DNA from: Alphaproteobacteria bacterium
Lineage (GTDB): Bacteria > Pseudomonadota > Alphaproteobacteria > JACAEB01
DNA: 64,000 nucleotides
Direction: 5' to 3'
Assembly (NCBI GenBank): GCA_024236075.1
Contig: JACKLE010000001.1
Coordinates: forward strand, 130,440 to 194,439
Below are positions 43,548 through 63,411 of this stretch, piece after piece. The translations under genes were made by a program, and so were the position numbers. The notes under the pieces were generated by a model that was not told where the DNA came from, made no database searches, and saw only the letters and a list, made by a program, of their open reading frames with translations. Numbering within the stretch: position 1 is the stretch's first letter; every line of letters starts with the position of its first letter.

Positions 43548-43653
43548 GCCTTGTTCCGACCGGTCGCGCGCCCCAGATCCCCCGGTCTGGATTCTCCTCT
43601 CCGAGAGGCCTAGATCCTCGGGGCGGGGTGGATGTGCTTTTGTGAAGAGCGTC

Positions 43654-44412
43654 ATGGCTTCTGCGCGGAATCAGGCCGGTGTTGCGTCGTCTCGCGAGGA
43701 CGACCGCGCCCCTGTCTACTATGCCATCGGCGATATTCACGGTCGGCGCGACTGCCTCGACGCGCTTCTCGCGCGCATCGTTCGCCACGGCGCCCGCGCC
43801 GACGAACGGGACGTGCGTGCGCGCGTCATCGTGACGCTTGGCGACTATGTCGACCGAGGGCCCGATTCGCGCGGCGTCATCGAGCGGCTGATGCGCGGCG
43901 TCGAAGGCTTTTCCCTCGTCACGCTCAAGGGCAATCACGAGGCGATCTTCCTCACCGTGCTCGCCGATCCTGCGCCCGACCTCTGGGCCTGGTGGCGGCG
44001 CAATGGCGGCCATTCGACGCTGTCGAGCTACGGCCGGCTGCCCGAGGGGCCGCCGACGCGCGCATGGCTCGAGGATCACGTTCCCGAGGCGCACCGGCGC
44101 TGGCTGGAGGCGCTGCCTGTCGTCCATGCACCGGACGGCCTCGTCTTCGTGCATGCCGGCATTCGTCCGGGCGTGCCGCTCGACGCGCAGAGCGAAGAGG
44201 ATATGCTCTGGATCCGCCAGGAGTTCCTGGACTCGCGGGTCGATTTCGGCGGGCGTATCGTACACGGACATACGCCCAACGAGACGCCCGAGATCCTCGC
44301 GAACCGCATCAATCTCGACACACTCGCCTATGCGAGCGGCATTCTCACTTGCGCGGTCATCGACGGCACCGATCCCCGCGGCACGCCGGAGATTTTGCAG
44401 ACCTCGCTCTGA
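43654..44412 (+). CDS. PPP-family metallophosphoesterase (Ser/Thr phosphatase 1 / ApaH-like)
   Basis: GDIHG, GDYVDRGP and GNHE motifs. ATG 43654 is preferred over GTG 43642. Confidence 0.75.
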   Translation: MASARNQAGVASSREDDRAPVYYAIGDIHGRRDCLDALLARIVRHGARADERDVRARVIVTLGDYVDRGPDSRGVIERLMRGVEGFSLVTLKGNHEAIFLTVLADPAPDLWAWWRRNGGHSTLSSYGRLPEGPPTRAWLEDHVPEAHRRWLEALPVVHAPDGLVFVHAGIRPGVPLDAQSEEDMLWIRQEFLDSRVDFGGRIVHGHTPNETPEILANRINLDTLAYASGILTCAVIDGTDPRGTPEILQTSL

Positions 44413-47107: not shown

Positions 47108-49045
47108 TCAGGGCGTGTACCAGACAGGCGAGGACCAGGCGCGTTCGCGAATGAGCGGGGGCACCCAATCCGCGCTCGGCGGCTCGCGACCGTCCGCGAG
47201 CGCCTGGGCCGTCGACCAGCGGCAAGTCGGGTTCTCGAGCACGCGCGCATAGTAGAAGGCGCGCTTGGCCGCATCGAACTCGGGATCGCGCCAGAGCATG
47301 GTCATGGCATCCGCGCCCTTGTCAGCCGAATAGGCGCAGGTTGCCATGTCGACGGCCGCGCCATTGTCCGGACACTGATGGGTCTCGGGATCGGGGGAAA
47401 GGCCGTCGGAGCACGCGATATCGAATACCTGCTCTCTCATGTCCTCGCCGTCGAGCCAGCCCTTGACGATCTGAATCTTGGCGAGAGGCGCGCTCATCGG
47501 ATCGCGCGTCGCCTCCACGAGGAGAGCCGGCGCGCCGTCCCCGCGAGGGAGGTCGGAGCCCATAGCCACGCCCTGCGCATAGGCCTTCGCGATGCGGTCA
47601 GGGTCGGCATCGAGGCCGTCTGGGAAGCCGAAGCTCGCGAACACGCGCACCGCCATGCGCCCTCCGGAGGTCGCGAAGGTCTCGCGGCGCTTCATGGCGG
47701 CGAAGATCGCCTCGCGCGTGTTCTCCTCCGCCCACACCGCGGCGAGCCCGCCGGGGTTGAAGCGCAGGAAGCCGCTCTGGCCGAGCGGCACGGGCGTGAG
47801 GCGCGTCTCGAGGCTCGCGTCGCGGCGGCCGTGGCCGCCGGGAAAAGTTGCCTCTTCCGTCGCGCCGGGGGTGGCGTTGTGCGTGTCCGTCGAGCCGATG
47901 AAGCCGTATTTGAAGGGATTGACGCCGCGTTCGGCCTCGGTCTTGAGGCCGAGCTTGAGGCCGTCGCGGGCGGTGGAGCCGAAGCGCTGGCAACCGCGCT
48001 TGTCGCCCTCGGCGCACACCGGAAAGACCTGCTCGAAGCCGCATTCCTCGTCGGAGGTCAGAACTCCGACCGTGCATTCCGACGCGCCCTTGATCTGGAA
48101 CATCTCGGCAATGCGCTCGATGCGGGCGCGCCGCGCGAGATCTTCATCCGTATACGGTGTGCCGTCCCGGCGCTCCAGGCTGAAGGCGTAGCCCCAGGAG
48201 ATGTTCTGGTTGTGCGGGATCGCGATGACGTCGCAGGCGCCCGTGCAGGCTTCCTCGAGCCAGCGCCAGAGCTCGGAATCGAAGACGAGGTCGTAGGTGC
48301 TCTTCGGCTCGTCGGGGACGTGCGTGTTCGCGAAGATGACGTTGCGGTGCAGATGGCCTCCGCTCGGGGCGGGCTGCGTGAACTCGTAGCCGATGAAGGT
48401 CGTGAACTTGCCGGGCTCGTAGAACTTCGCCGCATTGGTCCGGGTCATGTCCCAGACCATGGCCCGTAGGTCGTTGCAGCGCTTCATGCCCTCCTCGCCC
48501 TCGCAGAAGCCGGCGGCGCGCTCGGGCGGAATGGCGCTGTAGCCAGCGCCGAGCTTGCCGCCGTTGAGGCGGCCCCAGTCCTGATCGCGCAGCGCGAGGC
48601 ATGTGTCGGTGTCGTAGACGCCGCTGTTTTCATCCGTACACAGATCCGGCACGCCCCACCACTCTATGTGGTCGGTGACGCCGGCGAAATCGAGCGGCCT
48701 GTCGAGCTTGACCTTGCGGTCGCCCCAGATTGCGACCTCCTCGCCATGGGCGAAGCGATAGGCATCCTCCTGCGTGACGCGATTGCCGAAAGTGTAGCTG
48801 TCGAACGAGGCGGCCGAATGGACGTGGAGATCGCCGTAGAGCGGCACGCGGTCGGCCGCGGTCTTGGACGGCAGGGCCGTTTCCGCGGGAGGCGTGGGAT
48901 CGGCGGCGGGCTCGGGAGCGGGAGGGGCCTCGGCCTCCGTCGCCGGAGGAGAAGCCGTCTCCGCGTCCTTGCGCTCGTCGCAGGCCGCGAGCAGCGTGGC
49001 GACCGAGAGCGCGCCGATGAGCGTCCGCAATGTCCGGCGTGTCAT
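47108..49045 (-). CDS. DUF3604 family exported PHP-like metallo-phosphoesterase, paralog 1 (lipoprotein)
   Basis: MTRRTLRTLIGALSVATLLAAC lipobox. ..YGDLHVHSAASFD.., ..VTDHIEWWG.., ..IPHNQN.., ..IGSTDTHNATPG.., C-terminal ..RAWSSPVWYTP. SD AGGGAG lies before ATG 49045. Confidence 0.8.
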   Translation of the reverse strand: MTRRTLRTLIGALSVATLLAACDERKDAETASPPATEAEAPPAPEPAADPTPPAETALPSKTAADRVPLYGDLHVHSAASFDSYTFGNRVTQEDAYRFAHGEEVAIWGDRKVKLDRPLDFAGVTDHIEWWGVPDLCTDENSGVYDTDTCLALRDQDWGRLNGGKLGAGYSAIPPERAAGFCEGEEGMKRCNDLRAMVWDMTRTNAAKFYEPGKFTTFIGYEFTQPAPSGGHLHRNVIFANTHVPDEPKSTYDLVFDSELWRWLEEACTGACDVIAIPHNQNISWGYAFSLERRDGTPYTDEDLARRARIERIAEMFQIKGASECTVGVLTSDEECGFEQVFPVCAEGDKRGCQRFGSTARDGLKLGLKTEAERGVNPFKYGFIGSTDTHNATPGATEEATFPGGHGRRDASLETRLTPVPLGQSGFLRFNPGGLAAVWAEENTREAIFAAMKRRETFATSGGRMAVRVFASFGFPDGLDADPDRIAKAYAQGVAMGSDLPRGDGAPALLVEATRDPMSAPLAKIQIVKGWLDGEDMREQVFDIACSDGLSPDPETHQCPDNGAAVDMATCAYSADKGADAMTMLWRDPEFDAAKRAFYYARVLENPTCRWSTAQALADGREPPSADWVPPLIRERAWSSPVWYTP

Positions 49046-49129
49046 GGGTCGGGGCTCCCTTCGCGAAATTGTCATACGAGCTAACGAATGGGGTCGCATT
49101 TCCCTGCGCGAAGCCGGCGGGGCGCGTGC

Positions 49130-51022
49130 CTACGATCTCGGCCCGTACCAGATGGGCGAGGACCAGGCGCGCTCGCGGATCGTGGGCGCGACCCAGTCCG
49201 AGCTCGGCGGCTTCCGGCCGTCCTCGATCGCCTGAACGCTCGACCAGCGGCAGGTCGGATCCTCGAGGACGCGGGCATAATAGAAGGCCGGCTGCGCGGC
49301 GTCGAAATGAGGATCGCGCCAAAGGGCCGAGAGCGCGTCGGCGCCCGCCTCGCCGGTCCGCGAGCAGGTCGACAGGTCCACGCCGGCACCATTGTCCGGA
49401 CACTGATGGGTCCGGGCGTCCGGCTCGCGGCCGCCGGAGCACGCGACGTCGTAGACCGCTTCCCACATCTTGTCGCCGTCGAGCCATCCCTTGACGATCT
49501 GGAGCTTGGCTAGCGGCGCGCCGAGCGGGTCGCGAGCGGCTTCGACGAAGAGGGCGGGCGTAGCGCCGTCCGGGCCGCGCGGCAGATCCTGGCCCATCGC
49601 GGTGCCTTGGCTATAGGCGCGCGAGGCGCGGTCGGGCGCGGCGAGCAGGTCGTCTGCGAAGCCGAAGCCCGCGAACATGCGAATGGCGATGCGTCCGCCC
49701 GAAGTGCCGAAAGTCTCCCGCCGCCGCATGGCCGCGAAGATCGCCTCGCGTGAGTTCTCTTCGGCCCACACGCCGGCGAGCCCTCCGGGGTTGCGGCTGA
49801 GCGCGCCGCTTCTCGTCCCGCGCGGCGAGGGCACGAGGCGCTTGGCGGCGGCATCGTCGCTCGTGCCGTGCGCCCCGCGGTAGGAACGCTCCTCCGTATC
49901 GCCCGGATTCGAATTGTGCGTGTCGCTCGATCCGATGAAGCCGAACTTGAACGGGTTGATGCCGCGCTCCTGCTCCGTCTGAAGACCGAGCTTCAGCGCG
50001 TCGCGCACCGTCGATCCGAAGCGCTGGCAGGCGTTCTTCTGACCTTCCTCGCAGGCGGGATAGATCTGCTCGAACGCGCAGGCCTCGTCGGTCGTGCCTA
50101 TGCCGAGCGTGCACTCGGACGAGCCCTTGATCTGGAACATCTCGGCGAGAGGCTCGACCGCCGCGCGTCTCGTCAGATCTTCGTCCGTGTAAGGTGTTCC
50201 GTCCCGGCGCTCCAGACGGAAGGCAAAGCCCCAGGAGAGGTTTTGGTTGTGCGGAATCGAAATGGCGTCGCATCTCCCGGTGCAGGCTTCCTGAAGCCAG
50301 CGCCACAGCTCGGAATCGAAGACGAGGTCGTAGGTGCTCATCGGCGTTTGCGGAACGTCGTCGTTGGCGAAGACGACGTTGCGGTGCAGCGACCCGCTGG
50401 CGGGACCGGGCTGGGTGAACTCGTAGGCGACGAATGTCGTGAACTTGCCGGGCTCGTAGAACTTCGCGGCGTTCGCCCGGGTCATCGCCCAGACCTTGGC
50501 CTTGAGCTCGTCGCACCGCCGCTTGCCTACCTCGCCCTGGCAGAAACCGTCGGCGCGCTGTGGAGGAATTGACTGGATGCCCGCGACGCCGTCGCGCATT
50601 CCGGCCCAGCTCCGGCCGCGCGCGGCGGTGCAGGCCTGCGTCGCGTAGGCGTCGCTCGCCTTATCCGTACACAGATCCGGATAGCCCCACCACTCGATGT
50701 GATCGGTGATGCCGGCGAAGTCGAGCGGGCGGGCGAGCCGCGCCTTGCGTCCGCCGTAGAGCGTGACCTCCTCGCCCCGCGCGAAGCGGTAGGCCTCTTC
50801 CTGCGTCGCTCGGTTTCCGAGCGCGAAGCTGTCGTAGGAGGCCGCCGTGTGGACATGGAGATCGCCGTAGAGCGGCCGGCGGAGGGCAGGGCCGCCTTGC
50901 GGCGGCGCGGCGCCAGCGGCCGCCATCTCTCGGTCTTCCTCGGCCACGGCCGGCGGCGAGCCCGCGAAACATGCTGCGAGCGCGAGAAGAATCGCGACCG
51001 AATGGGACGACCGGAGGTTCAT
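49130..51022 (-). CDS. DUF3604 family exported PHP-like metallo-phosphoesterase, paralog 2
   Basis: MNLRSSHSVAILLALAAC.. signal/lipobox. ..YGDLHVHTAASYD.., ..ITDHIEWWG.., ..IPHNQN.., ..IGSSDTHNSNPG.., ..RAWSSPIWYGP. Confidence 0.8.
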   Translation of the reverse strand: MNLRSSHSVAILLALAACFAGSPPAVAEEDREMAAAGAAPPQGGPALRRPLYGDLHVHTAASYDSFALGNRATQEEAYRFARGEEVTLYGGRKARLARPLDFAGITDHIEWWGYPDLCTDKASDAYATQACTAARGRSWAGMRDGVAGIQSIPPQRADGFCQGEVGKRRCDELKAKVWAMTRANAAKFYEPGKFTTFVAYEFTQPGPASGSLHRNVVFANDDVPQTPMSTYDLVFDSELWRWLQEACTGRCDAISIPHNQNLSWGFAFRLERRDGTPYTDEDLTRRAAVEPLAEMFQIKGSSECTLGIGTTDEACAFEQIYPACEEGQKNACQRFGSTVRDALKLGLQTEQERGINPFKFGFIGSSDTHNSNPGDTEERSYRGAHGTSDDAAAKRLVPSPRGTRSGALSRNPGGLAGVWAEENSREAIFAAMRRRETFGTSGGRIAIRMFAGFGFADDLLAAPDRASRAYSQGTAMGQDLPRGPDGATPALFVEAARDPLGAPLAKLQIVKGWLDGDKMWEAVYDVACSGGREPDARTHQCPDNGAGVDLSTCSRTGEAGADALSALWRDPHFDAAQPAFYYARVLEDPTCRWSSVQAIEDGRKPPSSDWVAPTIRERAWSSPIWYGPRS

Positions 51023-51097
51023 GACGGCTCAGCCTTTTCTTCTGGCTGATACGGAGCCGTGGGTCGGCTCCCTGCGGCCGGCCGGGCGGCGCCGTCC

Positions 51098-52957
51098 CTA
51101 GCGGTCGGGCGAGTACCAGACCGGCGAGGACCAGGCGCGCTCGCGCTGGGTCGCGGGCAGTCCCCTCGGCGGCTCGCGATTGTCGGCGTGCGCCTGTAGT
51201 GTCGACCAGCGGCAGGTCGGGTTTTCCAGCACCCTGGCATAGTAGTAGGCGCGCGCCTTGGGATCGAAATGCGGATCCGTCCAGGCCACCTGGAACGCGT
51301 CGACACCCACGCCCTCGTCGCGCGAGCAGGTGGCGAGGTCGACGCTCGCGCCATTGTCCGGGCACCGGCCAGTCTTCGCATCGGGCGCTGCGCCGCCGGC
51401 GCAGGCGATGTCGACGACCGCCTCCTGTGGAACGCCGTTCTCCAGCCAGCCCTTGACGATCTGCACCTTGAAGAGCGCCGCGCTGGCCGGGTCGCGGCTC
51501 GCCTCGACGAGGAACGTCGGCGCGCGCGAGCCCCGAGGCAGGTCGCCGCCCATGGCCGTACCGAGCGCATAGGCCATCGAAGGCCAGTTGGCCTCGGCCA
51601 GGAGATCGTTCGATAGCCGGTCGCCCGCAAAAAGGCGGATCGCGAGGCGGGGGCCCGAGGTCGCGAAAGTCTGGCGCCGCTTGAGAGCCGCGAAGATCGC
51701 GGGCCGCGTGTTCTCCTCCGCCCAGACGCCCGCGAGCCCGCCCGGATTGTAGTAGGCCGCCGCCGGCGAGCCCTTGCGATCCGGGCGGCCGGCGACCGAA
51801 AGGCGCTTTTCGACCGTGTCGTCGAGTGCCCCGCCCTGACCTTCATAGGCCCATTCGTCCGTGCTCCCGGGTGCCGCGTTGTGGTTGTCCGTCGAGCCGA
51901 TGAAGCCGAGCTTGAAGGGATTGAGCCCATTTTCCGCTTCCGCCTCGAGGCCGCGGGCAAGCCCGCCGCGGATCGTTGAGCCTTGGCCTTCGCAGAGGTT
52001 CGTCTCGCTGCCCTCGCAGACGGGCCAGAGCTGGTTGAAGGCGCATTCCTCGTCGGGCGCGCCGAGGCCCACCGCGCATTCCGAGGCGCCCTTGATCTGA
52101 AAGATCTCCGCGACGGTCTCGTAGCGGGCGCGACGGCTCAGATCCTTGTCCGTATACGGCTTTCCGTCGCGCTTCTCGAGACGGAACGCGAGCCCCCAGG
52201 AGTAGTTCATGTTGTGCGGGATGGCGACGACGTCGCAACTACCGGTGCATGCATCGTCGAGCCACGCCCAAAGGCCGTCCTCCATAGCCACGTCGAAGGC
52301 CGACATCGCATGATCCGGAACGTCCGCATTGGCGAAGATGACGTTGCGATGCATCATCCCGCCATTCGTGAGCGCGGGCGAATATTCGTAGCCGATGAAG
52401 GTCGTGAGGCGCCCCGGTTCGTTGAAGCGGTCCGCGACGTCGCGCATGAGGGACCACGTCACCTTCGCGGCCTCGCGGCACTCCTCGCCCGTGCAGGTCG
52501 GCGCGAGCCGGCGTGCCGGCCATGCCGCGACGCCGCCCCACGCAAGGCCGAAGACGCTGCCGTCGCCGGCGCGCACGCGCCTGCACATGTCGGTCGTGTA
52601 GCCCGGCCAGCGTTCGTCGTGGCAGATCTGAAATTCTGCAAAGCTCTCGGAATGGTCCGTGACGGCAACAAAATCGAGCGGCCGCGCGAGACGGATCTTG
52701 CGCCCGCCGAAAATCTCGATCTCCTCTCCGCGCGCGAAGCGGTACGCGTCCTCCGGCGTGTTTGCGCGATCGCCGACGATGAACGCGTCCATCGACACAT
52801 GCGTGTGGACATGGAGCTCGCCGAAATAGGGATGGCTAGAGGAACTGCCGCCGGCTGCGTCCTCGGGCGAGGCGGCCTCGGCCAAACTGCAAACGAGGGC
52901 GAACGCCGAAGCGATGGCGATGCCGTAGGCACCTATAGTCGAGTGTCCCTGATTCAT
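51098..52957 (-). CDS. DUF3604 family exported PHP-like metallo-phosphoesterase, paralog 3 (more divergent)
   Basis: Start at MNQGHSTIGAYGIAIASAFALVCSLAEA (52957). ..FGELHVHTHVSMD.., ..VTDHSESF.., ..IPHNMN.., ..IGSTDNHNAAPG.., ..RAWSSPVWYSP. The ORF-track N-terminal extension to 53233 is not supported. Confidence 0.75.
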   Translation of the reverse strand: MNQGHSTIGAYGIAIASAFALVCSLAEAASPEDAAGGSSSSHPYFGELHVHTHVSMDAFIVGDRANTPEDAYRFARGEEIEIFGGRKIRLARPLDFVAVTDHSESFAEFQICHDERWPGYTTDMCRRVRAGDGSVFGLAWGGVAAWPARRLAPTCTGEECREAAKVTWSLMRDVADRFNEPGRLTTFIGYEYSPALTNGGMMHRNVIFANADVPDHAMSAFDVAMEDGLWAWLDDACTGSCDVVAIPHNMNYSWGLAFRLEKRDGKPYTDKDLSRRARYETVAEIFQIKGASECAVGLGAPDEECAFNQLWPVCEGSETNLCEGQGSTIRGGLARGLEAEAENGLNPFKLGFIGSTDNHNAAPGSTDEWAYEGQGGALDDTVEKRLSVAGRPDRKGSPAAAYYNPGGLAGVWAEENTRPAIFAALKRRQTFATSGPRLAIRLFAGDRLSNDLLAEANWPSMAYALGTAMGGDLPRGSRAPTFLVEASRDPASAALFKVQIVKGWLENGVPQEAVVDIACAGGAAPDAKTGRCPDNGASVDLATCSRDEGVGVDAFQVAWTDPHFDPKARAYYYARVLENPTCRWSTLQAHADNREPPRGLPATQRERAWSSPVWYSPDR

Positions 52958-53550
52958 GGGCTCTGCCTGCCGACCGCGATCGGCTCCTCCCCGCGATATG
53001 GGCGCCGAGAGCTTCGGCGCGAACTCCTGCAACCGCGCGGCCTGTCCGCACGGAGCCAGTGGGAATTCCGATGACATTCCGTTCCGGGACAAATACCGGA
53101 ATGCGCGGCTCAGCTTCCCGCCTCGACGGCCCTTCGACGGCGCTCCAGCGCGTGCCGCGACGGCTATCTGACACTCGGAGAGTTTGGAGCACAAGGCGTC
53201 AACATTGCGCAAATGCGTTTTCCGTTGCCGCAATCAGACCCGCTTGCGGGGCAGTACATCGCGGCCTGGAAAGGTCATCTCGTCCGTACAAAATTTCAAC
53301 TACTCCGTTTGTGTGCTACTTATATACAGATATAAGAAAGTATGATCCGTCTGTTTTGCGAGACAAATAGAACCAAATTGAGATCTTGAGGTTTGTTTGC
53401 GCAACGGAAGTCGGCATCGATATTTGAGATCTCTGCGCGAATTTGTTATAGGGCATCAACATCTGCTTCCAGTTGGTTCGGCCTGGTCCGGGGCCGGGCG
53501 CTCATGGCGCCTGCGCTCGATGGCGTGGTCCGGGCCGGTTCAATCGAAGG

Positions 53551-54408
53551 ATGCCCAGAGTGTCGGAACGATCTCATATCGGCCGAGTTGCGCCGTCACA
53601 CGCCCCTGTGCTCGACGAATTCGATCAGCGCTTCGGGCGCGATCCCACGGCGGTGCGCGAGACCGATCACTACCGAGCGGAATATGTCCGCGGCTTCGTC
53701 GAGAAATGGGACGAGCTCATCGACTGGGATGCCAGGGAAGTGAGCGAGGGGCGCTTTTTCATCGACGTCCTCAAGGCGCGCGGCAAGAAATCGGTGCTGG
53801 ACGTCGCAACGGGAACGGGGTTCCACTCCGTTCAGCTCGCGCTGGCGGGCTTCAATGTGGTGAGCGCGGACGGCTCGGCCGAGATGCTCGCCAAGGCGTT
53901 CGAGAACGCGCGCCGTCGCGACCTCATCCTCAAGACCGTGCACGTCGACTGGCGCTGGCTCAATCGCGACATTCACGGCAAGTACGACGCGATCATCTGC
54001 CTGGGGAACTCCTTCACTCATCTCTTCCTCGAGACGGATCGCCGCCGCGCGCTCGCCGAGTTCTATGCGGCCCTGAAGCACGACGGGCTCCTCATCCTGG
54101 ATCAGCGCAACTACGACGCCATCCTCGACGACGGCTTCTCGTCCAAGCACAAATACTACTATTGCGGGGACCAGGTGACGGCCGAGCCCGAGCATGTCGA
54201 CGAGAGCCTCGCGCGCTTCCGCTACGCCTTCCCGGACGGCTCGACCTACCATCTCAACATGTTCCCGTTGCGCAAGGCGTATGTCCGAAAGCTGATGAAG
54301 GAGGTCGGCTTCCAGCGCGTCCAGACCTATGGCGACTTCCAGGAGAGCTACGAGGGCGAGCGCCCCGACTTCTTCATCCATGTGGCGGAGAAGAGCTTCC
54401 ATGAGTAG
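53551..54408 (+). CDS. Glycine/sarcosine N-methyltransferase (GSMT)
   Basis: Long blocks match GSMT of halophilic cyanobacteria as I recall it: ..RETDHYRAEYVRGFVEKWDELIDW..VLDVATGTGFHS..VSADGS.EMLAKAFEN..DWRWLNRDIHG.YDAIICLGNSFTHLF..LNMFPLRK.Y...M.EVGFQ..YGDF...Y....PDFFIHVAEK. The start (ATG 53551 vs TTG 53473) is uncertain. Confidence 0.85.
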   Translation: MPRVSERSHIGRVAPSHAPVLDEFDQRFGRDPTAVRETDHYRAEYVRGFVEKWDELIDWDAREVSEGRFFIDVLKARGKKSVLDVATGTGFHSVQLALAGFNVVSADGSAEMLAKAFENARRRDLILKTVHVDWRWLNRDIHGKYDAIICLGNSFTHLFLETDRRRALAEFYAALKHDGLLILDQRNYDAILDDGFSSKHKYYYCGDQVTAEPEHVDESLARFRYAFPDGSTYHLNMFPLRKAYVRKLMKEVGFQRVQTYGDFQESYEGERPDFFIHVAEKSFHE

Positions 54409-55252
54409 GTCCGCCGGCGCGGCGCGCGCGGTCGCCGAAAGCTACTACGACAGCCCGGATGCCGACGGCTTCTACCGGATCGTCTGGGGCGGCGAGGACA
54501 TCCATATCGGCCTCTACCAGCGCGAGGACGAGGACATTGCGACCGCGAGCCGGCGGACCGTGGAGCGCATGGCGCTGTTGCTCGACGAGAGCCCGCATGG
54601 GCTCGGACCCCAAACCAGGGTTCTCGACATCGGCGCCGGCTATGGCGGGGCGGCGCGCCACCTCGCGGCGACCCGGCGCGCGCACGTCAAATGCCTCAAC
54701 CTTTCGCGCGTGGAGAACGAGCGGAACGCAGCGCTGACCGAGGAGGCAGGGCTCTCGGACCGCATTGCCGTCAGGCACGGCAGCTTCGAGGACATCCCGG
54801 CAGAAGCCGCGAGCTTCGACGTCGTCTGGTCGCAAGACGCCATTCTTCATGCCGGCGACCGTGCGCGCGTCCTTGCCGAGGTCGCGCGGGTCCTGAAGCC
54901 GGGCGGCAGCTTCGTCTTCACCGATCCCATGCAGGCGGACGGCCTCGACGACCCATCCGCGCTCGAGCCCATCTATGCGCGGCTCCAGCTTCAGAGCCTC
55001 GCCTCCATCGGCTTCTATCGCGAGGGCCTTGCCCGCCTGGGCTTCGAAGAGGCGCTCGTCCTGCCTTTGACCGGCCAGCTCGCCTGTCACTACCGCCGCG
55101 TCGGCGAGGAGCTCGCCCGCGCGCGCCCGCGCCTTCGCGGGCGTGTCAGCGAGGCCTATATCGACCGCATGCTGACGGGTCTCGCCCACTGGGTCGAGGG
55201 CGCGCGGGCCGGCCATCTCGAATGGGCGATCCTTCATTTCGTGCGCGGCTGA
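54401..55252 (+). CDS. Sarcosine/dimethylglycine N-methyltransferase (SDMT)
   Basis: ..YYDS.DADGFY..IWGGEDIHIGLY..VLDIGAGYGGAAR...CLN.S.VENERN..FDVVWSQDAILH..VLKPGG.FVFTDPMQ.. is SDMT-like. 8-nt overlap with GSMT. Confidence 0.85.
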   Translation: MSRSAGAARAVAESYYDSPDADGFYRIVWGGEDIHIGLYQREDEDIATASRRTVERMALLLDESPHGLGPQTRVLDIGAGYGGAARHLAATRRAHVKCLNLSRVENERNAALTEEAGLSDRIAVRHGSFEDIPAEAASFDVVWSQDAILHAGDRARVLAEVARVLKPGGSFVFTDPMQADGLDDPSALEPIYARLQLQSLASIGFYREGLARLGFEEALVLPLTGQLACHYRRVGEELARARPRLRGRVSEAYIDRMLTGLAHWVEGARAGHLEWAILHFVRG

Positions 55253-55266
55253 GAGGCGCAGAGCCC

Positions 55267-56790
55267 ATGCGCGCGAAATCGGGCCTCCTCAAGGGCCTCA
55301 ACCCGACGGTCGCGATCCTCGCCAAGGCCCTCGTTCTCTCCTTCGTCCTGTTCGGCGTGCTCGAGACCGATCTCGCATCGGAGGCTTTCGAGGCGCTGCG
55401 GGAGGCGATCGTCGCGACGGTCGGCTGGCTCTATGTGCTCGTCGTCGCCGGCGCGCTCATCCTTGTGCTGTTCCTCATGGCGAGCCGATATGGGAGCCTG
55501 CGTCTCGGCAAGCCGGACGAGCGCCCGGCCTTCGGGCTGTGGTCCTGGTTCTCCATGCTCTTCGCGGCGGGCATGGGTATCGGGCTCGTCTTCTGGGCGG
55601 TCGCCGAGCCCGTCATGCATTTCGTCTCGAATCCCTTCGTCGCGGCGGGGGGCACGCCCAAGGCCGCCGAGGTCGCGATACGCCTAACCTTCTTTCATTG
55701 GGGCCTTCATCCTTGGGCGGTCTATGCCCTCGTCGGGCTGTGCTTCGCCTATTTCAGCTTTCGGCGCGGCCTGCCGCTCACCGTGCGCTCCTCGCTCGAG
55801 CCGATCTTCGGCGCGCGCGTCTGGGGTCCCGTCGGCCACGCCGTCGACATTCTCGCGATCTTCGCCACGACCTTCGGCGTCGCGACCTCGCTCGGGCTCG
55901 GCGCCGTGCAGATCAATGCGGGGCTCGAGCACCTTTTCGGCTGGCGCGTGTCCGTCGGCCATCAGCTCGTCATCATCGCCGCGATCACGGCCGTCGCGGT
56001 TACCTCCGTCGTCTCCGGCCTCGAGCGCGGCATCCGCATCCTCAGCGAGGCCAATCTCTGGATGTCCATCGTCTTTCTCGCTTTCGTGGCGAGCTTCGGC
56101 CCGACCGAATATCTCATCGAGACGCTCGTGCAGGGGGTCGGCGATTATCTGCAGAACATTGTCGGGCTCAGCTTCTGGACCGATGCCAACGCCAATCGCG
56201 GGTGGCAGGCGGCCTGGACCACCTTCTATTGGGGCTGGTGGCTGAGCTGGGCGCCCTTCGTGGGGCTCTTCATCGCGCGCATCTCCCGTGGGCGGACGAT
56301 TCGCGAGTTCCTGGCGGGCGTCCTCCTCGCGCCGACCCTCGTCACCTTCGTGTGGCTCGCCGTTCTCGGCGGGACGGCGCTTCACCTCGCCCTCGGCGGC
56401 GACGACAGCCTCGTCGCCGAGGTCAACACGGACGTGACGCTGTCGCTCTATGCGACGATCGAGACCCTCGACCCGGGCGTTCTCGGCAAGGTCGTGGCGG
56501 GGCTCGCGACGCTTCTCGTCGCCACCTATTTCGTGACCTCGTCGGACTCCGGCACGCTCGTCGTCAACACCATCCTGTCGGTGGGGGAGCTTCGGCCGCC
56601 GGTTCTGCACCGCGTCATCTGGGGCGTGAGCGAGGGCGCGGTGGCCGCGACGCTGCTCGTGGCCGGGGGCCTCTCCGCGCTTCAGTCGGCGGCGATCTCG
56701 GCCGCGCTTCCCATCGCGGTCATCCTGGTCCTGATGGCCGTTGGCCTCCTCAAATCGCTCGCGCGCGAGATGCCGGCCCCCCGGATCTGA
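55267..56790 (+). CDS. BCCT family (betaine/carnitine/choline) transporter
   Basis: 507 aa, about 12 TM segments. ..WSWFSMLFAAGMGIGLVFWAVAEP.. and ..TTFYWGWWLSWAPFVGLFIARISRGRTIREF.. are BCCT signatures. Confidence 0.85.
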   Translation: MRAKSGLLKGLNPTVAILAKALVLSFVLFGVLETDLASEAFEALREAIVATVGWLYVLVVAGALILVLFLMASRYGSLRLGKPDERPAFGLWSWFSMLFAAGMGIGLVFWAVAEPVMHFVSNPFVAAGGTPKAAEVAIRLTFFHWGLHPWAVYALVGLCFAYFSFRRGLPLTVRSSLEPIFGARVWGPVGHAVDILAIFATTFGVATSLGLGAVQINAGLEHLFGWRVSVGHQLVIIAAITAVAVTSVVSGLERGIRILSEANLWMSIVFLAFVASFGPTEYLIETLVQGVGDYLQNIVGLSFWTDANANRGWQAAWTTFYWGWWLSWAPFVGLFIARISRGRTIREFLAGVLLAPTLVTFVWLAVLGGTALHLALGGDDSLVAEVNTDVTLSLYATIETLDPGVLGKVVAGLATLLVATYFVTSSDSGTLVVNTILSVGELRPPVLHRVIWGVSEGAVAATLLVAGGLSALQSAAISAALPIAVILVLMAVGLLKSLAREMPAPRI

Positions 56791-57702: not shown

Positions 57703-58662
57703 ATGATCGGAACGCGGCGAAATTTGCTGCTGACAGGCGCGGGAGGATTGACGCTCGCCGCCTGCGCGGATCTGCCCTTTGGGTCGGGCGACAAGAAGGC
57801 AGGGGATGAGCGCATGCCGGTCGAAGTTGCGAGCGCCTATGCCGAGTCCGTCGCCTTGGTCGGGTATACGGAGGATCTCGCATCGGAGGTTTCGGTGCGG
57901 CTCGCGCGCTTTCCGGTCGCGGGCGCCGGCACCCTGTGGGCCGTGGCGATCATCGGCGGAAAGACGTTCGGCCTCGGCGAGCCCATAAAGCTCTCCTCCG
58001 CGGCGCAGGCGACCCCCGTCAACAGCGAGACCGCGCTCTATGACGAGCGCGGACCGGCCTCGGCGCGCTTCCTGCGCCACCATCTCTCCCTCGCGAGCTT
58101 CGACGGCGCCATGAACGTCACGGCGCCCATGCATGCGACCGGCCATCCCCCTCCGGGGCCCGGAACCGTTCCCGTCGGGATCGAGGCGAGCTTTTCCGCG
58201 ATCCATGCCCCCGTGCTCGCGCGCGACGGCCGGCGCGAGGTCTTCGGCGTCATCGACGCCAAGGTGACGACGCCCGACGGGCCCGTCGCCTTCTCCGGGC
58301 CGGCAAAATGGCACGAGCAGTCCGGCGACCGGACGGCATTCGCCCCGCGCTTCACCTACATCGCCGTCTCGAATCGGGAGCGGGCGCTGCTCGCCGTCGC
58401 GCGCGAGGATTCGGACTATGGCTTCGCGGTCATCGACGGAAAGACCGTTCAGGTCGTCAAGGTGACGGTCGGTCCGATGGCCGAGCGCCGTTCGCTGAAG
58501 GTCGTCCTGGAAGACGGGCGCAAGATCGCCGGCACGCTCGACGTCGTGCACGAGACCTCCATGCCTGTCGAGGGCCGTCGTCGCCTGAGCACCACCGTCA
58601 TGGCGCGCACCAGCATCGGCGATCTCGTCGGACATGCCAATGACTGGGACCCCAAGGCTTGA
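57703..58662 (+). CDS. Hypothetical Tat-signal lipoprotein (319 aa)
   Basis: MIGTRRNLLLTGAGGLTLAAC: twin-arginine motif plus lipobox. SD GGAGGAG. No family recognised. The stop is 5 nt before the carboxylase ATG. Confidence 0.6.
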   Translation: MIGTRRNLLLTGAGGLTLAACADLPFGSGDKKAGDERMPVEVASAYAESVALVGYTEDLASEVSVRLARFPVAGAGTLWAVAIIGGKTFGLGEPIKLSSAAQATPVNSETALYDERGPASARFLRHHLSLASFDGAMNVTAPMHATGHPPPGPGTVPVGIEASFSAIHAPVLARDGRREVFGVIDAKVTTPDGPVAFSGPAKWHEQSGDRTAFAPRFTYIAVSNRERALLAVAREDSDYGFAVIDGKTVQVVKVTVGPMAERRSLKVVLEDGRKIAGTLDVVHETSMPVEGRRRLSTTVMARTSIGDLVGHANDWDPKA

Positions 58663-58667
58663 GCGGC

Positions 58668-61600
58668 ATGAGCCTCGCGCGCCTGCTCATCGCCAATCGC
58701 GGCGAGGTTGCGGTGCGCGTCGCGCGTGCCGCGCGCGCGCTCGGGATCGAAACCGTCGCCATCTTTTCGGAGGACGACGCGCAGTCCCTGCATGTCTCGC
58801 TGGCGGACCGGGCCCATGCGCTCGAGGGCGTCGGCCCCGCGCCCTATCTCGATCGTGAGCGGATCGTCGCCGCCGCCCTCGCCACGGGCTGCGATGCCGT
58901 TCATCCCGGCTACGGCTTCCTGAGCGAGTCGGCCGCGTTCGCGAGTGCGGCCCATGAGGCGGGACTCGTCTTTGTCGGCCCGAGCGCCGAGACGCTCGAC
59001 CTGTTCGGCGACAAGGGCCATGCGCGCGGCCTTGCGCGCTCGCTGGGCATTCCGGTTCTCGCCGGCACGGAGGGGCCGACAAGCCTCGACGAGGCACGCG
59101 CTTTCTTCGAGTCGCTTCCGGCCGGCGGCGCCATGATGATCAAGGCCGTCGCGGGCGGCGGCGGGCGCGGCATGCGGAGCGTCCGCGTGGCGGGCGAGAT
59201 CGATGGAACCTATGAGCGCTGCCGGTCCGAGGCGCTCGCGGCCTTCGGCGTGGGCGAGGTCTATGTCGAGGAGATGATGCCGGATGCCCGGCATATCGAG
59301 GTCCAGATTGTCGGCGACGGCACCGGAGACGTCGTTCACCTCTACGAGCGCGATTGCAGCCTTCAGCGCCGTCACCAGAAGATCGTAGAGATCGCTCCGG
59401 CTCCCAATCTGCCGCAGGCGATGCGTGAGGCGATGCTCGAAGCGGCCGTCGCGCTCGCGCGCGCGGCGCGCTACAGCGGTGTCGGCACGATCGAGTTTCT
59501 CGTCGACGGCAAGAGCGGACGCTTTGCCTTCATAGAGGCCAATGCGCGCCTCCAGGTCGAGCATCCGATTACGGAGGAAGTGATCGGGATCGACATCGTC
59601 AAGACCCAGCTCAAGATCGCGGGCGGAAAGGGCCTGAAGGAGCTTGGGCTCGTCCAGTCGCGGATCGCGCCCCCCCGAGGCGTCGCCCTGGAGCTGCGCA
59701 TCAACATGGAGACGCTCGAGGCCGGCGGAGCCCTGAGGCCGGGCCATGCGCGCCTCGGCCACTATCTGCCCCCGACCGGCCCGGGATTGCGCGTCGACGG
59801 CGCCGGCTATCCGGGCCTCGTTCCCTCCCCTCGCTTCGACTCGCTCCTCGCAAAGCTCGTCGTGCATACGCCGGAGGGCGGGCTCGCCGAGGCGCTCGCC
59901 ATGGCGCGGGCCGGCCTCGAGGAGTTCGAGATCCAGGGACCGGCGACGAATATTGCATTCCTGCGCGCCGTGCTCGCGCGCGAGGAGATTGCGGAATGGG
60001 ACGTCTCCACGCGTCTCGTCGACGATCGCTTGGACGATCTCGTGGAGGCGGCGAAAGCGCCGGGCTCGCGTCGCGGCCCGCACGCGGCCGCACCCGCTTC
60101 GCTTCAGCCGGGCGGCTCCGTCGCGGACATGGCATCGGCTCCTCCGGGCACGGAGGCCGTCGTTGCGCCCATGGCCGGGACGCTCGTGGCCTATTCGGTC
60201 GGGGTCGGCGACGCCGTCGCCGCCGGCGCCGAGGTCGCGGTCCTCGAAGCGATGAAGATGGAGCATCTGGTCGCAGCATCGGCGGGCGGCGTCGTGCGCG
60301 CGCTGGCATGCGAGCCGGGCACGACCGTCGGCGAGGGCGAGGCGCTCCTCTACGTCGAGCCGGCCGAGGTGGCTGCGGCCGCACGCGCCAACGAGTCCGC
60401 GCGCGATCTCGATCGCATCCGCACGGATCTCGCCGAGGCCCTGGAGCGTCACGCGATCACCGAGGATGCCCGCCGTCCGGAGGCGGTCGCGCGGCGCCGC
60501 AAGACAGGTCAGCGCACGGCGCGCGAAAACGTTGCCGATCTCGTCGATCCGGGCTCCTTCATCGAATATGGCGCGCTTGCGCTCGCCGCGCAGCGCCGCC
60601 GCCGCTCGGAAGAGGAGCTCCTCAAGATGAGCCCCGCCGACGGCATGATCGCCGGCATCGGATCCGTAAACGGAGCGCTTTTCGACGAGGATCGCGCGCG
60701 CACCATGGTGCTCGCCTACGACTATACGGTTCTGGCCGGCACGCAAGGCCACATGAATCACAAGAAAAAGGACCGCATGCTGCACCTCGCCGAGCGCTGG
60801 CGTGTGCCGCTCGTCCTTTTCGCGGAAGGCGGCGGCGGGCGGCCCGGCGATACGGACGCGGCCGGCGTCGCCGGGCTCGACATCGTCACCTTCGCGCAAT
60901 ATGCGCAGCTCAACGCGCTGGTACCCATCCTTGGGATCGTCTCGGGACGTTGTTTCGCCGGAAACGCCGCGCTGCTCGGCTGCTCCGACGTCGTCATCGC
61001 CACCGAAAATTCGACCATCGGCATGGGCGGCCCCGCCATGATCGAGGGGGGCGGGCTCGGCACCTACGCGCCGGAGGAGGTCGGGCCCGTGGCCGCCCTC
61101 GCGCCCGCGGGCGTCCTTGACCTCATCGTGCCCGACGAGACGGCGGCCGTCGCGGCGGCGAAGAAATATCTCGCCTATTTCCAGGGCCCGACGGCGAATT
61201 GGACCTGCGCGGATCAGCGCCTTCTGCGCGGTCTCGTGCCCGAGAACCGGCTGCGCGTCTACGACGTGCGCCGCGTCATCGAGGCGCTGGCCGACGAGGG
61301 GTCCGTGCTCGAGCTTCGCCGCGAGTTCGGCCACGGCATGATCACGGCCCTCGTGCGCGTCGAAGGCCGGCCCATGGGCCTGGTCGCCAACAATCCCATG
61401 CATCTTGCGGGCGCGATCGATTCGCCGGGGGCGGACAAATCCGCCCGCTTCATGCAGCTGTGCGACGCGCACGGCCTGCCGCTTCTCTTTCTCTGCGATA
61501 CGCCGGGCATCATGGTGGGCCCGCAATCGGAGCGCACGGGCACGGTGCGCCACGCCTCCCGCCTCTTCGTCACGGCGGCGAACCTTTCGGTTCCTCTCTT

Positions 61601-61977: not shown

Positions 61978-63411
<1,434 letters not shown>

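What the first reader, a model, noticed from the sequence alone, without database searches (positions are those of the whole stretch)
47108..52957. Three tandem exported DUF3604 (PHP-like metallo-phosphoesterase) paralogs forming a ~5.9-kb array
Three consecutive minus-strand genes (645, 630 and 619 aa), separated by 84 and 75 nt, encode paralogs of the uncharacterised DUF3604 family.
- All retain a PHP-type metal-ligand set that I can read directly: HVH(T/S), TDH(I/S)E, IPHN(Q/M)N and IGS(T/S)D(T/N)HN. All share the C-terminal RAWSSP(V/I)WY signature and several conserved Cys.
- All are exported. Two have lipoboxes (LLAAC, LALAAC) and one has a Sec signal.
- Paralogs 1 and 2 are close to each other. 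Paralog 3 is clearly more divergent.
To my knowledge no substrate has been assigned to this family. A triplicated extracytoplasmic array suggests substrate diversification, for example toward phospho(di)esters or another metal-dependent hydrolysis. It sits beside, and divergent from, a betaine-synthesis operon and behind an unusual AT-rich control region.
Basis: partly seen in the sequence, partly recalled or inferred. Interest (0 to 1): 0.68.

Follow-up and report, generated by a model that had tools for sequence, protein, structure and literature searches.

The report
Three tandem exported DUF3604 metallohydrolase genes
Three neighbouring genes encode intact, exported members of a very large but still uncharacterised enzyme family (DUF3604); the description is correct, but such tandem sets are common in this family and the genes are already annotated this way, so the locus itself is fairly ordinary.

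Summary
Three minus-strand genes (645, 630 and 619 aa; gaps of 84 and 75 nt) are full-length PF12228/DUF3604 proteins (E about 1e-186).

- **Active site.** All three keep nine residues (H, H, D, H, E, H, H, D, H) in the same order and of the same type as the trinuclear-metal ligands of characterised PHP enzymes. They also keep 12 family-invariant cysteines.
- **Export.** Two carry lipoboxes and one carries a Sec signal.
- **Fold.** AlphaFold models (pLDDT 89-91) have one significant PDB match, 3E38. That is the only solved homologue of the Sec-exported Zn3 phosphodiesterases Sb-PDE/No-PDE. The match is distant (TM 0.36-0.49).
- **Known function.** No paper assigns a function to DUF3604.

The locus itself is not unusual. 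NCBI already annotates the genes as DUF3604. The family has about 14,000 50%-identity clusters, and 19 of 80 sampled loci hold 2-6 copies.

New at family level: DUF3604 genes are repeatedly adjacent to a PPIC-type PPIase plus a HupE_UreJ_2 membrane protein (26-28 of 81 loci) and occur fused to HupE_UreJ_2. That module is absent from this window.

The best reading is envelope metal-dependent hydrolases, probably phosphoesterases, that arose by lineage-specific duplication and now carry different targeting signals. The substrate is unproven. Verdict: new members of a known, uncharacterised kind; moderate-low interest.

The parts
47108..49045 (-). D1: DUF3604 paralogue, 645 aa. Predicted lipoprotein (LLAAC, Cys22, Asp at +2) with a Pro/Ala-rich linker of about 45 aa before the catalytic domain.
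   Evidence: ORF. PF12228 E = 1.5e-186. Lipobox. N-terminal sequence. All nine ligands and the family-invariant Cys are kept.
48980..49045 (-). D1 signal peptide plus lipobox (residues 1-22, MTRRTLRTLIGALSVATLLAAC).
   Evidence: This is a sequence pattern only.
49046..49129 (-). 84-nt D2-D1 spacer. It holds a GGGAG Shine-Dalgarno-like site about 11 nt before the ATG and no terminator-like site.
   Evidence: Weakly similar to the other two upstream regions.
49130..51022 (-). D2: DUF3604 paralogue, 630 aa. Predicted lipoprotein (LALAAC, Cys18, Phe at +2).
   Evidence: ORF. PF12228 E = 1.4e-186. AlphaFold model pLDDT 90.6. Foldseek top hit 3E38.
50831..50866 (-). D2 motif I, GDLHVHTAASYD (residues 53-64). 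It carries H56, H58 and D64, the proposed alpha-metal and gamma-metal ligands.
   Evidence: Invariant in 60 homologues. hhalign places H56/H58/D64 on YcdX H7/H9/H15.
51023..51097 (-). 75-nt D3-D2 spacer. It holds an AAAGG Shine-Dalgarno-like site and no terminator-like site.
51098..52957 (-). D3: the most divergent DUF3604 paralogue, 619 aa. Sec-type signal without a lipobox, so predicted soluble in the periplasm.
   Evidence: ORF. PF12228 E = 1e-183. Deviates from family-conserved residues at E436Q, F194L and E318N (D2 numbering) but keeps all ligands. The identical protein and synteny occur in two Logan assemblies.
52958..53559 (.). 602-nt divergent intergenic region between D3 and the glycine/sarcosine methyltransferase gene. 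It holds an AT-rich core at 53300-53457 and a 7-4-7 palindrome at 53318-53335.
   Evidence: No Rfam family. No Pho, Fur or Zur box.

Best explanation
**What the genes are.** Three intact paralogous genes, probably transcribed as one unit, encode Sec-exported two-domain enzymes of about 64-68 kDa from family DUF3604.

**Domain layout.**
- The N-terminal 400 or so residues form a highly derived PHP-like barrel. It carries all nine ligands of a trinuclear metal centre and disulfide-rich inserts.
- The C-terminal 170 or so residues form an Ig-like beta-sandwich.

**Proposed mechanism (inferred).** By analogy with the characterised trinuclear PHP enzymes (Sb-PDE/No-PDE, histidinol-phosphate phosphatase):
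- the alpha and beta metals (H56, H58, D367; H213, H258; bridged by E201) activate a water molecule;
- the gamma metal (D64, H108, H369) stabilises the leaving group.

The most likely chemistry is hydrolysis of phosphate mono- or diesters in the cell envelope.

**Origin and divergence of the copies.**
- They arose by lineage-specific duplication. D3 split first and D1/D2 more recently.
- All three remain under purifying selection.
- They differ most visibly in targeting:
  - D1 is a lipoprotein with Asp at +2, which means inner-membrane retention under the E. coli rule.
  - D2 is a lipoprotein with Phe at +2.
  - D3 is soluble.
- The array may therefore place the same chemistry in different envelope compartments, act on different substrates, or both.

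**Shown:** family, intactness, ligand conservation, export signals, paralogy.
**Inferred:** metal content, phosphoester substrate, compartment assignment, co-transcription.
For: - **Family and intactness.** All three are full-length PF12228 matches.
- **Ligands.**
  - Nine ligand-type residues are invariant in 60 homologues and kept in all three paralogues. Of 148 family-conserved columns, 132 are unchanged and none of the 16 changed columns is a ligand or a Cys.
  - Their order, H-H-D-H-E-H-H-D-H, equals the published ligand list of No-PDE/3E38: alpha H61 H63 D260; beta H142 H203; bridge E135; gamma D68 H93 H262 (PMC11656708).
  - Each lies in or just after a predicted beta-strand.
  - hhalign puts H56/H58/D64 on YcdX H7/H9/H15.
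- **Fold.**
  - AlphaFold models have pLDDT 90.6 and 89.0.
  - The only significant PDB match is 3E38, with Foldseek probability 1.0 and E = 1.6e-5 to 1.9e-5.
  - 3E38 is the sole solved homologue of Sb-PDE/No-PDE. Those enzymes are signal-peptide-bearing, probably Sec-exported, DTT-sensitive, Zn-containing phosphodiesterases.
- **Weak sequence link.** 43 of 60 family members weakly hit the CehA/McbA metallohydrolase domain model.
- **Export.** 99 of 105 complete homologues have a hydrophobic N-terminus and only 1 looks Tat-like. Twelve invariant Cys fit oxidative folding outside the cytoplasm.
- **Selection.** dN/dS is 0.30-0.48.
- **Operon structure.** No terminator-like site lies in the two spacers.
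Against: - No experimental datum exists for any DUF3604 protein.
- Neither the Pfam PHP model nor any PDB sequence is detectably similar, even with a profile.
- TM-scores to 3E38 are only 0.29-0.49.
- The hhalign match to YcdX covers motif I only, with probability 5%.
- No pst, pho or phn gene and no Pho box lies nearby.
- The family's recurrent partners elsewhere are a PPIase and a HupE-type membrane protein, not phosphate-acquisition genes.
- The nearest named sequence family includes carbamate hydrolases, not phosphoesterases.
- The +2 lipoprotein sorting rule is established for E. coli, not for this alphaproteobacterial MAG.
Confidence: 0.5

Rival explanations
1. The proteins are exported trinuclear-metal hydrolases, but they act on non-phosphate substrates. 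Candidates are carbamates, carboxylic or sulfate esters, amides, or a hydrophobic natural product.
For: - 43 of 60 family members weakly match NF038032, the CehA/McbA (carbaryl hydrolase) metallohydrolase domain. The best E is 2e-5, and it is the only recurrent non-DUF3604 hit.
- One family member is fused to two SnoaL-like domains (P0136).
- Neighbours elsewhere often include monooxygenases, SDRs, enoyl-CoA hydratases, acyl-CoA ligases and sulfatases.
- In this window the flanking genes are a quinone oxidoreductase, a TetR regulator and thioesterases.
Against: - Scores against NF038032 are 12-17 bits against a cut-off of 80.
- A complete nine-ligand, three-metal site is what the characterised phosphoesterases of this superfamily carry.
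- The metabolic neighbours vary from locus to locus and are common in these genomes in any case.
Confidence: 0.25
2. DUF3604 works in metal trafficking with the HupE-type permease.
- One form: it hydrolyses an imported metal chelate in the periplasm so that the metal can be taken up.
- Other form: it is an enzyme whose unusual metal (for example Ni or Co) must be supplied by the permease, and the PPIase acts as its foldase.
For: - A PPIC-type PPIase occurs next to DUF3604 genes in 28 of 81 loci and HupE_UreJ_2 in 26 of 81. The two partners are nearly always on the same strand, in the fixed order PPIase then HupE.
- Three independent 50%-identity cluster representatives are HupE_UreJ_2-DUF3604 fusions.
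- One locus reads ECF sigma, FecR, STN-TonB receptor, TonB receptor, DUF3604 x2, PPIase, HupE.
Against: - Neither partner is in this 64-kb window.
- About two thirds of sampled loci lack them, including the SAR11 loci.
- TonB receptors are present in only 9 of 81 loci.
- The fusion proteins are predicted from metagenomes and could be gene-calling merges.
- No Fur or Zur box was found here.
Confidence: 0.15
3. The three copies are simply redundant (a gene-dosage effect), or one or more are decaying. In that case the array has no functional diversification.
For: - Tandem duplication is common in the family.
- D3 has lost three otherwise near-invariant residues: E436Q, F194L and E318N.
- dN/dS involving D3 is higher, at 0.41-0.48.
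Against: - All three reading frames are intact, and all ligands and Cys are kept.
- dN/dS is below 1 for all pairs.
- The copies are 33-47% divergent in protein sequence and carry three different N-terminal targeting signals.
- The DNA shows no recent conversion.
Confidence: 0.07

Closest known systems
Pfam PF12228 (DUF3604), an uncharacterised family
   Same: All three proteins match over the full length at E about 1e-186. Length, two-domain layout, signal peptide, invariant His/Asp/Glu set and 12 Cys are as in the rest of the family.
   Different: Nothing essential differs. The three, together with P0003-P0005, form a small subclade at 50% identity or more, set apart from the bulk of the family at 49% or less. 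They lack the PPIase/HupE partner genes seen in about a third of loci.
Sb-PDE / No-PDE and PDB 3E38 (BVU_3505): exported trinuclear-Zn PHP-family phosphodiesterases (PMC5460133, PMC11656708)
   Same: - Both have a Sec-type signal peptide and apparent disulfide dependence.
- Both carry nine metal ligands of the same type and order, with the Glu bridge and the beta-metal His close together (E135/H142 against E201/H213).
- Both have a two-domain architecture.
- 3E38 is the only significant structural match of the D2 models.
   Different: - DUF3604 proteins are about 200 aa longer (about 620-645 aa against 441 aa) and carry large Cys-rich inserts.
- No sequence similarity is detectable by HMMER, and TM is below 0.5.
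- The substrate-pocket residues cannot be compared.
- No activity data exist for DUF3604.
Canonical PHP phosphatases (E. coli YcdX, 1M65; L-histidinol-phosphate phosphatase)
   Same: Motif I (D-L-H-x-H-T-x-x-S-x-[H/D]) aligns, including the third-metal ligand. The nine-ligand logic is the same.
   Different: - Only 18 columns align, with probability 5%.
- Pfam PHP (PF02811) gives no hit.
- The canonical enzymes are cytoplasmic, about 250 aa long and lack disulfides.
CehA/McbA family metallohydrolase domain (NCBIfam NF038032)
   Same: It is a recurrent weak match, seen in 43 of 60 family members. The matches cover the HxH region and the NPGGLAGVWAEEN region.
   Different: Scores of 12-17 bits for the window proteins are far below the 80-bit cut-off. 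The named members of NF038032 hydrolyse carbamates.
DUF3604 - PPIC-type PPIase - HupE_UreJ_2 gene module (seen here in other genomes; not described in the searched literature)
   Same: The enzyme family is the same, and arrays of one to six DUF3604 copies occur next to the module.
   Different: The module's two partner genes are absent from this 64-kb window.

Membership tests
Pfam PF12228 DUF3604 | Whole-protein score above the gathering threshold (20.4 bits), with the match covering the full model. | tested here: met
   Scores are 621.8, 621.9 and 612.5 bits, covering profile positions 3-4 to 591 of 591.
PHP superfamily (trinuclear-metal phosphoesterase fold) | Nine metal ligands in the order HxH, D/H, H, E, H, H, DxH. 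| tested here: met
   - H56 H58 D64 H108 E201 H213 H258 D367 H369 (D2 numbering) are invariant in 60 homologues and present in D1-D3.
- The order equals the No-PDE/3E38 ligand list.
- The test rests on sequence pattern.
PHP superfamily (trinuclear-metal phosphoesterase fold) | Distorted (beta/alpha)7-barrel fold similar to solved PHP structures. | tested here: inconclusive
   - The only significant Foldseek hit is the PHP-like 3E38 (probability 1.0, E about 2e-5), but TM is 0.29-0.49 and rmsd 7-13 A.
- The next hit is the Pol III alpha PHP chimera 4GX9, at E = 0.36.
PHP superfamily (trinuclear-metal phosphoesterase fold) | Match to the Pfam PHP model PF02811, or sequence similarity to a solved PHP protein. 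| tested here: not met
   - No PF02811 hit at E of 1 or below in any of 60 members.
- No PDB sequence hit with a single sequence or a profile.
- hhalign against YcdX aligns motif I only, with probability 5%.
PHP superfamily (trinuclear-metal phosphoesterase fold) | Three bound metal ions and metal-dependent phosphoester hydrolysis. | not testable with these tools
   This needs purified protein, ICP-MS and enzyme assays.
Sb-PDE/No-PDE-type exported PHP phosphodiesterases | Sequence relatedness: the paper's similarity network used an alignment score of 40, about 30% identity. | tested here: not met
   3E38, a member of that network, is not found by phmmer or hmmsearch. Foldseek identity is 11-13%.
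Sb-PDE/No-PDE-type exported PHP phosphodiesterases | Sec signal peptide and an extracytoplasmic location. | tested here: met
   All three have hydrophobic N-terminal segments, and none has a Tat motif. This is a prediction only.
CehA/McbA family metallohydrolase (NF038032) | Score at or above the curated cut-off of 80 bits. | tested here: not met
   16.9 bits for D3 and 12.3 bits for D2.
Bacterial lipoproteins | Lipobox [LVI][ASTVI][GAS]C at the end of a signal peptide. | tested here: met
   - D1 has L-A-A-C22 and D2 has L-A-A-C18.
- D3 has no lipobox, so the feature is not met for D3.
- No SignalP or LipoP run was possible.
DUF3604-PPIase-HupE_UreJ_2 module | A Rotamase_2 PPIase gene and a HupE_UreJ_2 gene adjacent to the DUF3604 gene or genes. 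| tested here: not met
   tblastn of 51 PPIase and HupE proteins from the other loci finds nothing in the window. Profile searches also find none. The remaining 457 kb or so of the source contig could not be examined.

The most novel reading that the evidence does not exclude
DUF3604 may be an unrecognised, globally distributed class of Sec-exported, disulfide-stabilised, trinuclear-metal phosphoesterases.
- It would be a functional counterpart of the PhoA, PhoX and PhoD alkaline phosphatases or phosphodiesterases.
- It is found from SAR11 and marine Halieaceae to soil Acidobacteriota.
- In many lineages it would mature through a dedicated membrane-anchored PPIase foldase and a HupE-type metal permease.
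- In this MAG, three paralogues would place the activity in three envelope compartments: inner-membrane lipoprotein, outer-membrane lipoprotein and soluble periplasmic protein.
Probability: 0.25. Interest if true: 0.65.

Novelty: new member of a known kind. Interest (0 to 1): 0.35.

Why it matters
The locus adds three more members to a family that public annotation already recognises, so on its own it changes little.

The family is a large known unknown:
- It has about 14,000 50%-identity clusters.
- It is present in abundant marine and soil lineages, including streamlined SAR11 genomes.
- It has no solved structure and no assigned activity.

If the proteins are envelope phosphoesterases, they would be a missing term in accounts of organic-phosphorus turnover. 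If they depend on the PPIase and HupE-type partners, they would be a new example of a dedicated maturation or metal-supply module for a periplasmic enzyme.

The three paralogues here are divergent and differently targeted, which makes them a convenient matched set for heterologous expression and substrate screening.

Tried and rejected
1. **Sequence search of the PDB.** A single sequence and a 60-sequence profile found only chance hits.
2. **hhalign of the family profile against E. coli YcdX.** The recalled sequence was verified as identical to 1M65. Only motif I aligned, with probability 5%.
3. **Second AlphaFold model of the catalytic domain alone.** The aim was to pull in more PHP structures. 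3E38 was still the only significant hit.
4. **Literature.**
   - 'DUF3604' returns one paper, with only a table entry for Chlamydia CT_425. 'PF12228' returns none.
   - CT425/CTL0684 returned only listing-type papers, which were not read further. 3E38/BVU_3505 added nothing beyond the two PDE papers.
   - A search on HupE_UreJ_2 failed on syntax and was not repeated.
5. **Regulatory signals.**
   - There is no Rfam family in the window apart from one tRNA.
   - There is no Pho, Fur or Zur box in the 602-nt intergenic region.
   - Promoter and terminator scans were at chance level.
6. **Link to the betaine operon.** The divergent arrangement recurs only in assemblies of the same organism. No other locus shows it, so it is treated as coincidental adjacency.
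7. **Context of the nearest outside relatives.**
   - P0005 is not on record.
   - P0004 sits on a 7-kb contig with a GntR regulator and a DUF1501/DUF1800 pair, which is uninformative.
8. **SAR11 context.** It is uninformative: typA upstream and an ABC-2 transporter downstream on the other strand.
9. **C-terminal extensions of longer family members.** They have no Pfam domain. They fall into two unannotated groups and are absent from the window proteins.
10. **Antisense ORFs across the region.** These include 47378-48469 (+) and 51983-53074 (+). They were rejected as high-GC artefacts. GC3 of the minus-strand genes is 0.82-0.86, and the antisense ORFs cluster only because the sense genes are conserved.

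Full report
**Observation**

The region 47108-52957 holds three consecutive minus-strand ORFs.
- D1 is 47108-49045 (645 aa), D2 is 49130-51022 (630 aa) and D3 is 51098-52957 (619 aa). The spacers are 84 and 75 nt.
- Third-position GC of 0.82-0.86 marks the minus strand as coding. The long plus-strand ORFs across the region are the usual high-GC antisense artefacts.
- Each protein matches Pfam PF12228 (DUF3604) from end to end, with E = 1.5e-186, 1.4e-186 and 1e-183.
- D1 and D2 are 67-69% identical. D3 is 53-55% identical to both.
- At DNA level the unit repeats at about 2.03 and 1.96 kb with 60-80% identity, so the duplications are old and show no recent gene conversion.

The window comes from a MAG labelled 'Alphaproteobacteria bacterium' (contig of 520,931 bp).
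- NCBI already names all three proteins 'DUF3604 domain-containing protein' (P0001, P0002, P0006).
- The exact D3 protein, with the same neighbours, also occurs in two Logan assemblies (SRR12358675 and SRR12358676).
- Those assemblies place the start of the divergent methyltransferase gene at window 53560, so the intergenic region is 602 nt.

**Are the genes intact and functional-looking?**

- In an alignment with 117 outside homologues, 148 columns are at least 90% conserved. D1-D3 together deviate in only 16 of them, mostly conservatively, and never at a putative metal ligand or a conserved cysteine.
- D3 carries the least conservative changes: E436Q, F194L and E318N in D2 numbering.
- Nei-Gojobori dN/dS is 0.30 for D1/D2 and 0.41-0.48 for pairs with D3. 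That indicates purifying selection on all copies.
- A neighbour-joining tree puts D1 and D2 as sisters. With three metagenomic proteins (P0003-P0005) and D3 they form a small subclade apart from the bulk of the family. The array is therefore a lineage-specific expansion.

**Export**

- D1 (MTRRTLRTLIGALSVATLLAAC/DERKD) and D2 (MNLRSSHSVAILLALAAC/FAGS) have lipoboxes. D3 has a hydrophobic Sec-type N-terminus without one.
- Across the family, 99 of 105 complete homologues have a hydrophobic N-terminal segment. 22 have a lipobox-like motif and only 1 has a Tat-like motif.
- Twelve cysteines are invariant in 60 homologues, as expected for a protein that folds oxidatively outside the cytoplasm.
- D1 has Asp at +2 after the lipid-modified Cys, followed by a Pro/Ala-rich linker of about 45 residues. 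D2 has Phe at +2.
- Under the E. coli sorting rule (established knowledge, not tested in this lineage), D1 would stay in the inner membrane, D2 would go to the outer membrane and D3 would be soluble.
- This difference in targeting is the clearest divergence between the copies that can be read from the sequence.

**Fold and active site**

*Structure searches*
- An AlphaFold2 model of D2 built on 60 homologues has mean pLDDT 90.6 and pTM 0.90. A second model of residues 45-460 alone has pLDDT 89.0.
- Against the PDB, both models have one significant Foldseek match: 3E38 (BVU_3505), a 'two-domain protein containing predicted PHP-like metal-dependent phosphoesterase'. Probability is 1.0 and E is 1.6e-5 and 1.9e-5.
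- The TM-scores are only 0.29-0.49. The next hit is a Pol III alpha PHP chimera at E = 0.36.
- Weaker, non-significant full-length hits (E about 0.01-0.09) are to Ig-like beta-sandwich domains such as RhoGDI, UNC119 and the KirBac cytoplasmic domain. They are consistent with the all-beta C-terminal region of the model.
- No PDB chain is similar in sequence, even to a family profile, so DUF3604 has no solved relative.

*Sequence searches*
- The Pfam PHP model does not hit any of 60 members.
- 43 of the 60 weakly match NCBIfam NF038032, 'CehA/McbA family metallohydrolase', with a best E of 2e-5.

*Ligand comparison*
- Nine residues invariant in the family are H56, H58, D64, H108, E201, H213, H258, D367 and H369 in D2 numbering. 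Each lies in or just after a predicted beta-strand.
- They have the same types and order as the ligands reported for No-PDE/3E38: alpha-metal H61, H63, D260; beta-metal H142, H203; bridging E135; gamma-metal D68, H93, H262 (PMC11656708).
- The short Glu-to-His spacing typical of that subgroup is also shared.
- hhalign of the family profile against E. coli YcdX aligns motif I only. It puts H56/H58/D64 on YcdX H7/H9/H15, at low probability (5%). My recalled YcdX sequence was first verified as identical to 1M65.

The 'PHP-type ligand set' reading is therefore well supported at the level of pattern and predicted fold. DUF3604 is nevertheless a very distant branch. It fails the sequence-based membership tests for Pfam PHP, for the Sb-PDE network and for NF038032.

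**What is known**

- 'DUF3604' occurs in one paper of the searchable library. It appears there only as a table entry for Chlamydia trachomatis CT_425 in a transposon-mutant list. 'PF12228' occurs in none.
- The nearest characterised enzymes, reached through 3E38, are Sb-PDE of Sphingobium sp. TCM1 and No-PDE of Novosphingobium.
  - Each is 441 aa with a cleaved signal peptide that has no Tat motif.
  - They are inhibited by DTT and o-phenanthroline and contain Zn as a trinuclear site.
  - They are selective phosphodiesterases (PMC5460133; PMC11656708).
- They show that an exported, disulfide-containing, trinuclear PHP enzyme acting on phosphodiesters exists. This is an analogy, not membership.

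**Family-wide context**

*Size and spread*
- A profile search of 1.84 billion cluster representatives finds 13,956 clusters at E of 1e-3 or below. 1,905 of them are at E of 1e-30 or below.
- Eighty genome loci were fetched. They span Pelagibacterales, Halieaceae, Porticoccaceae, Hyphomonadaceae, Caulobacteraceae, Acidobacteriota (Vicinamibacteria, Thermoanaerobaculia), Myxococcota and Flavobacteriaceae.

*Arrays*
- Nineteen of the 80 loci hold more than one DUF3604 copy within 10 kb. Five hold three or more, and two Vicinamibacteria loci hold 5-6 in tandem.
- The triplication here is therefore typical of the family and not a peculiarity.

*Recurrent partner genes*
- Clustering all flanking ORFs showed two recurrent partners: a PPIC-type peptidyl-prolyl isomerase (Pfam Rotamase_2, E = 1.4e-16) and a HupE_UreJ_2 membrane protein (E = 1.5e-49).
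- Iterated profile searches find the PPIase in 28 of 81 loci and HupE_UreJ_2 in 26 of 81.
- The two are always in the order PPIase then HupE. They are nearly always on the same strand as, and directly next to, one to six DUF3604 genes. Typical orders are D-P-H, P-H-D, D-D-P-H and D-D-P-H-D-D-D-D.
- One Rhodospirillaceae MAG reads ECF sigma, FecR, STN-TonB receptor, TonB receptor, DUF3604, DUF3604, PPIase, HupE.

*Fusions*
- Three separate 50%-identity cluster representatives (P0154, P0177, P0211) are HupE_UreJ_2-DUF3604 fusion proteins.
- Another (P0136) carries two SnoaL-like domains.
- The HupE-like proteins keep an H-x3-G-x-D-H motif like that of HupE nickel/cobalt permeases. This is my reading of the sequence printed, and the comparison motif is from memory.

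*In this window*
- Neither partner gene is present.
- The neighbours are a PIG3-type quinone oxidoreductase, a TetR regulator and two thioesterases on one side.
- On the other side lies the divergent glycine/sarcosine methyltransferase, sarcosine/dimethylglycine methyltransferase and BCCT operon.
- None of these recurs next to DUF3604 elsewhere.
- The SAR11 context is uninformative.

**Regulation**

- No terminator-like site lies in the two spacers, and each gene has a Shine-Dalgarno-like site. Co-transcription from upstream of D3 is plausible but unproven.
- The 602-nt divergent region has no Rfam match and no Pho, Fur or Zur box.
- Its AT-rich core (53300-53457) and the 7-4-7 palindrome CTTATAT-ACAG-ATATAAG (53318-53335) lie closer to the methyltransferase operon than to D3.

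**Interpretation**

With high confidence (about 0.85), the three genes encode exported, metal-dependent hydrolases with a trinuclear centre. With moderate confidence (about 0.5), the bond hydrolysed is a phosphate ester. [quoted passage not shown]

The rival readings are:
- A non-phosphate hydrolase, on the CehA/McbA hint and the SnoaL fusion (0.25).
- A role tied to metal trafficking with the HupE-type permease (0.15). This fits the family-wide gene linkage but has no support inside this window.
- Mere redundancy or decay (0.07). Conservation and the divergent targeting signals argue against it.

**Verdict**

- The locus consists of already-annotated members of a known uncharacterised family, and the tandem arrangement is common there.
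- It is a sound target for biochemical characterisation, but not a surprising genomic feature.
- The more interesting result is at family level: the conserved, sometimes fused, PPIase and HupE_UreJ_2 partnership of DUF3604.

Noticed in passing
window 53318-53335 (within the AT-rich core 53300-53457): A perfect 7-4-7 palindrome, CTTATAT-ACAG-ATATAAG. In addition, TTGAGATCT occurs twice (about 53377 and 53424) in the 602-nt divergent region. The position suggests an operator for the glycine-betaine methyltransferase operon rather than for the DUF3604 genes. No Rfam hit and no Pho, Fur or Zur box was found.
   Followed up: partly
window 53560-56790 (+): A complete glycine-to-betaine methylation operon.
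- Glycine/sarcosine N-methyltransferase: NF051855, 490 bits against a cut-off of 350.
- Sarcosine/dimethylglycine N-methyltransferase: best hit NF041675, 318 bits, below the cut-off of 550.
- A BCCT betaine transporter.
This points to a halotolerant or halophilic lifestyle for the MAG.
   Followed up: partly
window 57703-58662 (+) and 58659-61973 (+): A 319-aa ORF with a lipoprotein-type N-terminus (LTLAAC) and no Pfam or NCBIfam family. It overlaps the start of a 1104-aa single-chain biotin carboxylase-BCCP-carboxyltransferase fusion. An amidase follows on the opposite strand (61978-63411).
   Followed up: no
L001-L081 (for example L081 8082-13772; L010 6486-20066; L071): DUF3604 genes in many phyla are adjacent to a fixed PPIC-type PPIase then HupE_UreJ_2 gene pair (26-28 of 81 loci). 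Arrays reach six DUF3604 copies. No description of this module was found in the searched literature.
   Followed up: yes
proteins P0154, P0177, P0211, P0136: Natural fusions occur: HupE_UreJ_2-DUF3604 in three separate 50%-identity clusters, and two SnoaL-like domains fused to DUF3604 in one.
   Followed up: partly
proteins P0123, P0126, P0149, P0172, P0236 and P0183, P0202, P0208, P0239, P0242 (C-terminal 130-180 aa): Two distinct, recurrent C-terminal extension domains without any Pfam match are appended to DUF3604 proteins in other organisms. One of them also occurs as a separate or extended ORF in L058 and L071.
   Followed up: partly
L019, L022, L023, L027 (Pelagibacterales): DUF3604 is present as a single gene, apparently without the PPIase/HupE partners, in streamlined SAR11 genomes. 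In L027 it lies downstream of typA/bipA. This suggests a function worth keeping under genome reduction.
   Followed up: partly
window 43642-44412 (+): A separate calcineurin-like metallophosphoesterase (Pfam Metallophos, E = 8e-13) lies 2.7 kb beyond the array, past the thioesterase, TetR and oxidoreductase genes. It is unrelated in fold to DUF3604.
   Followed up: no
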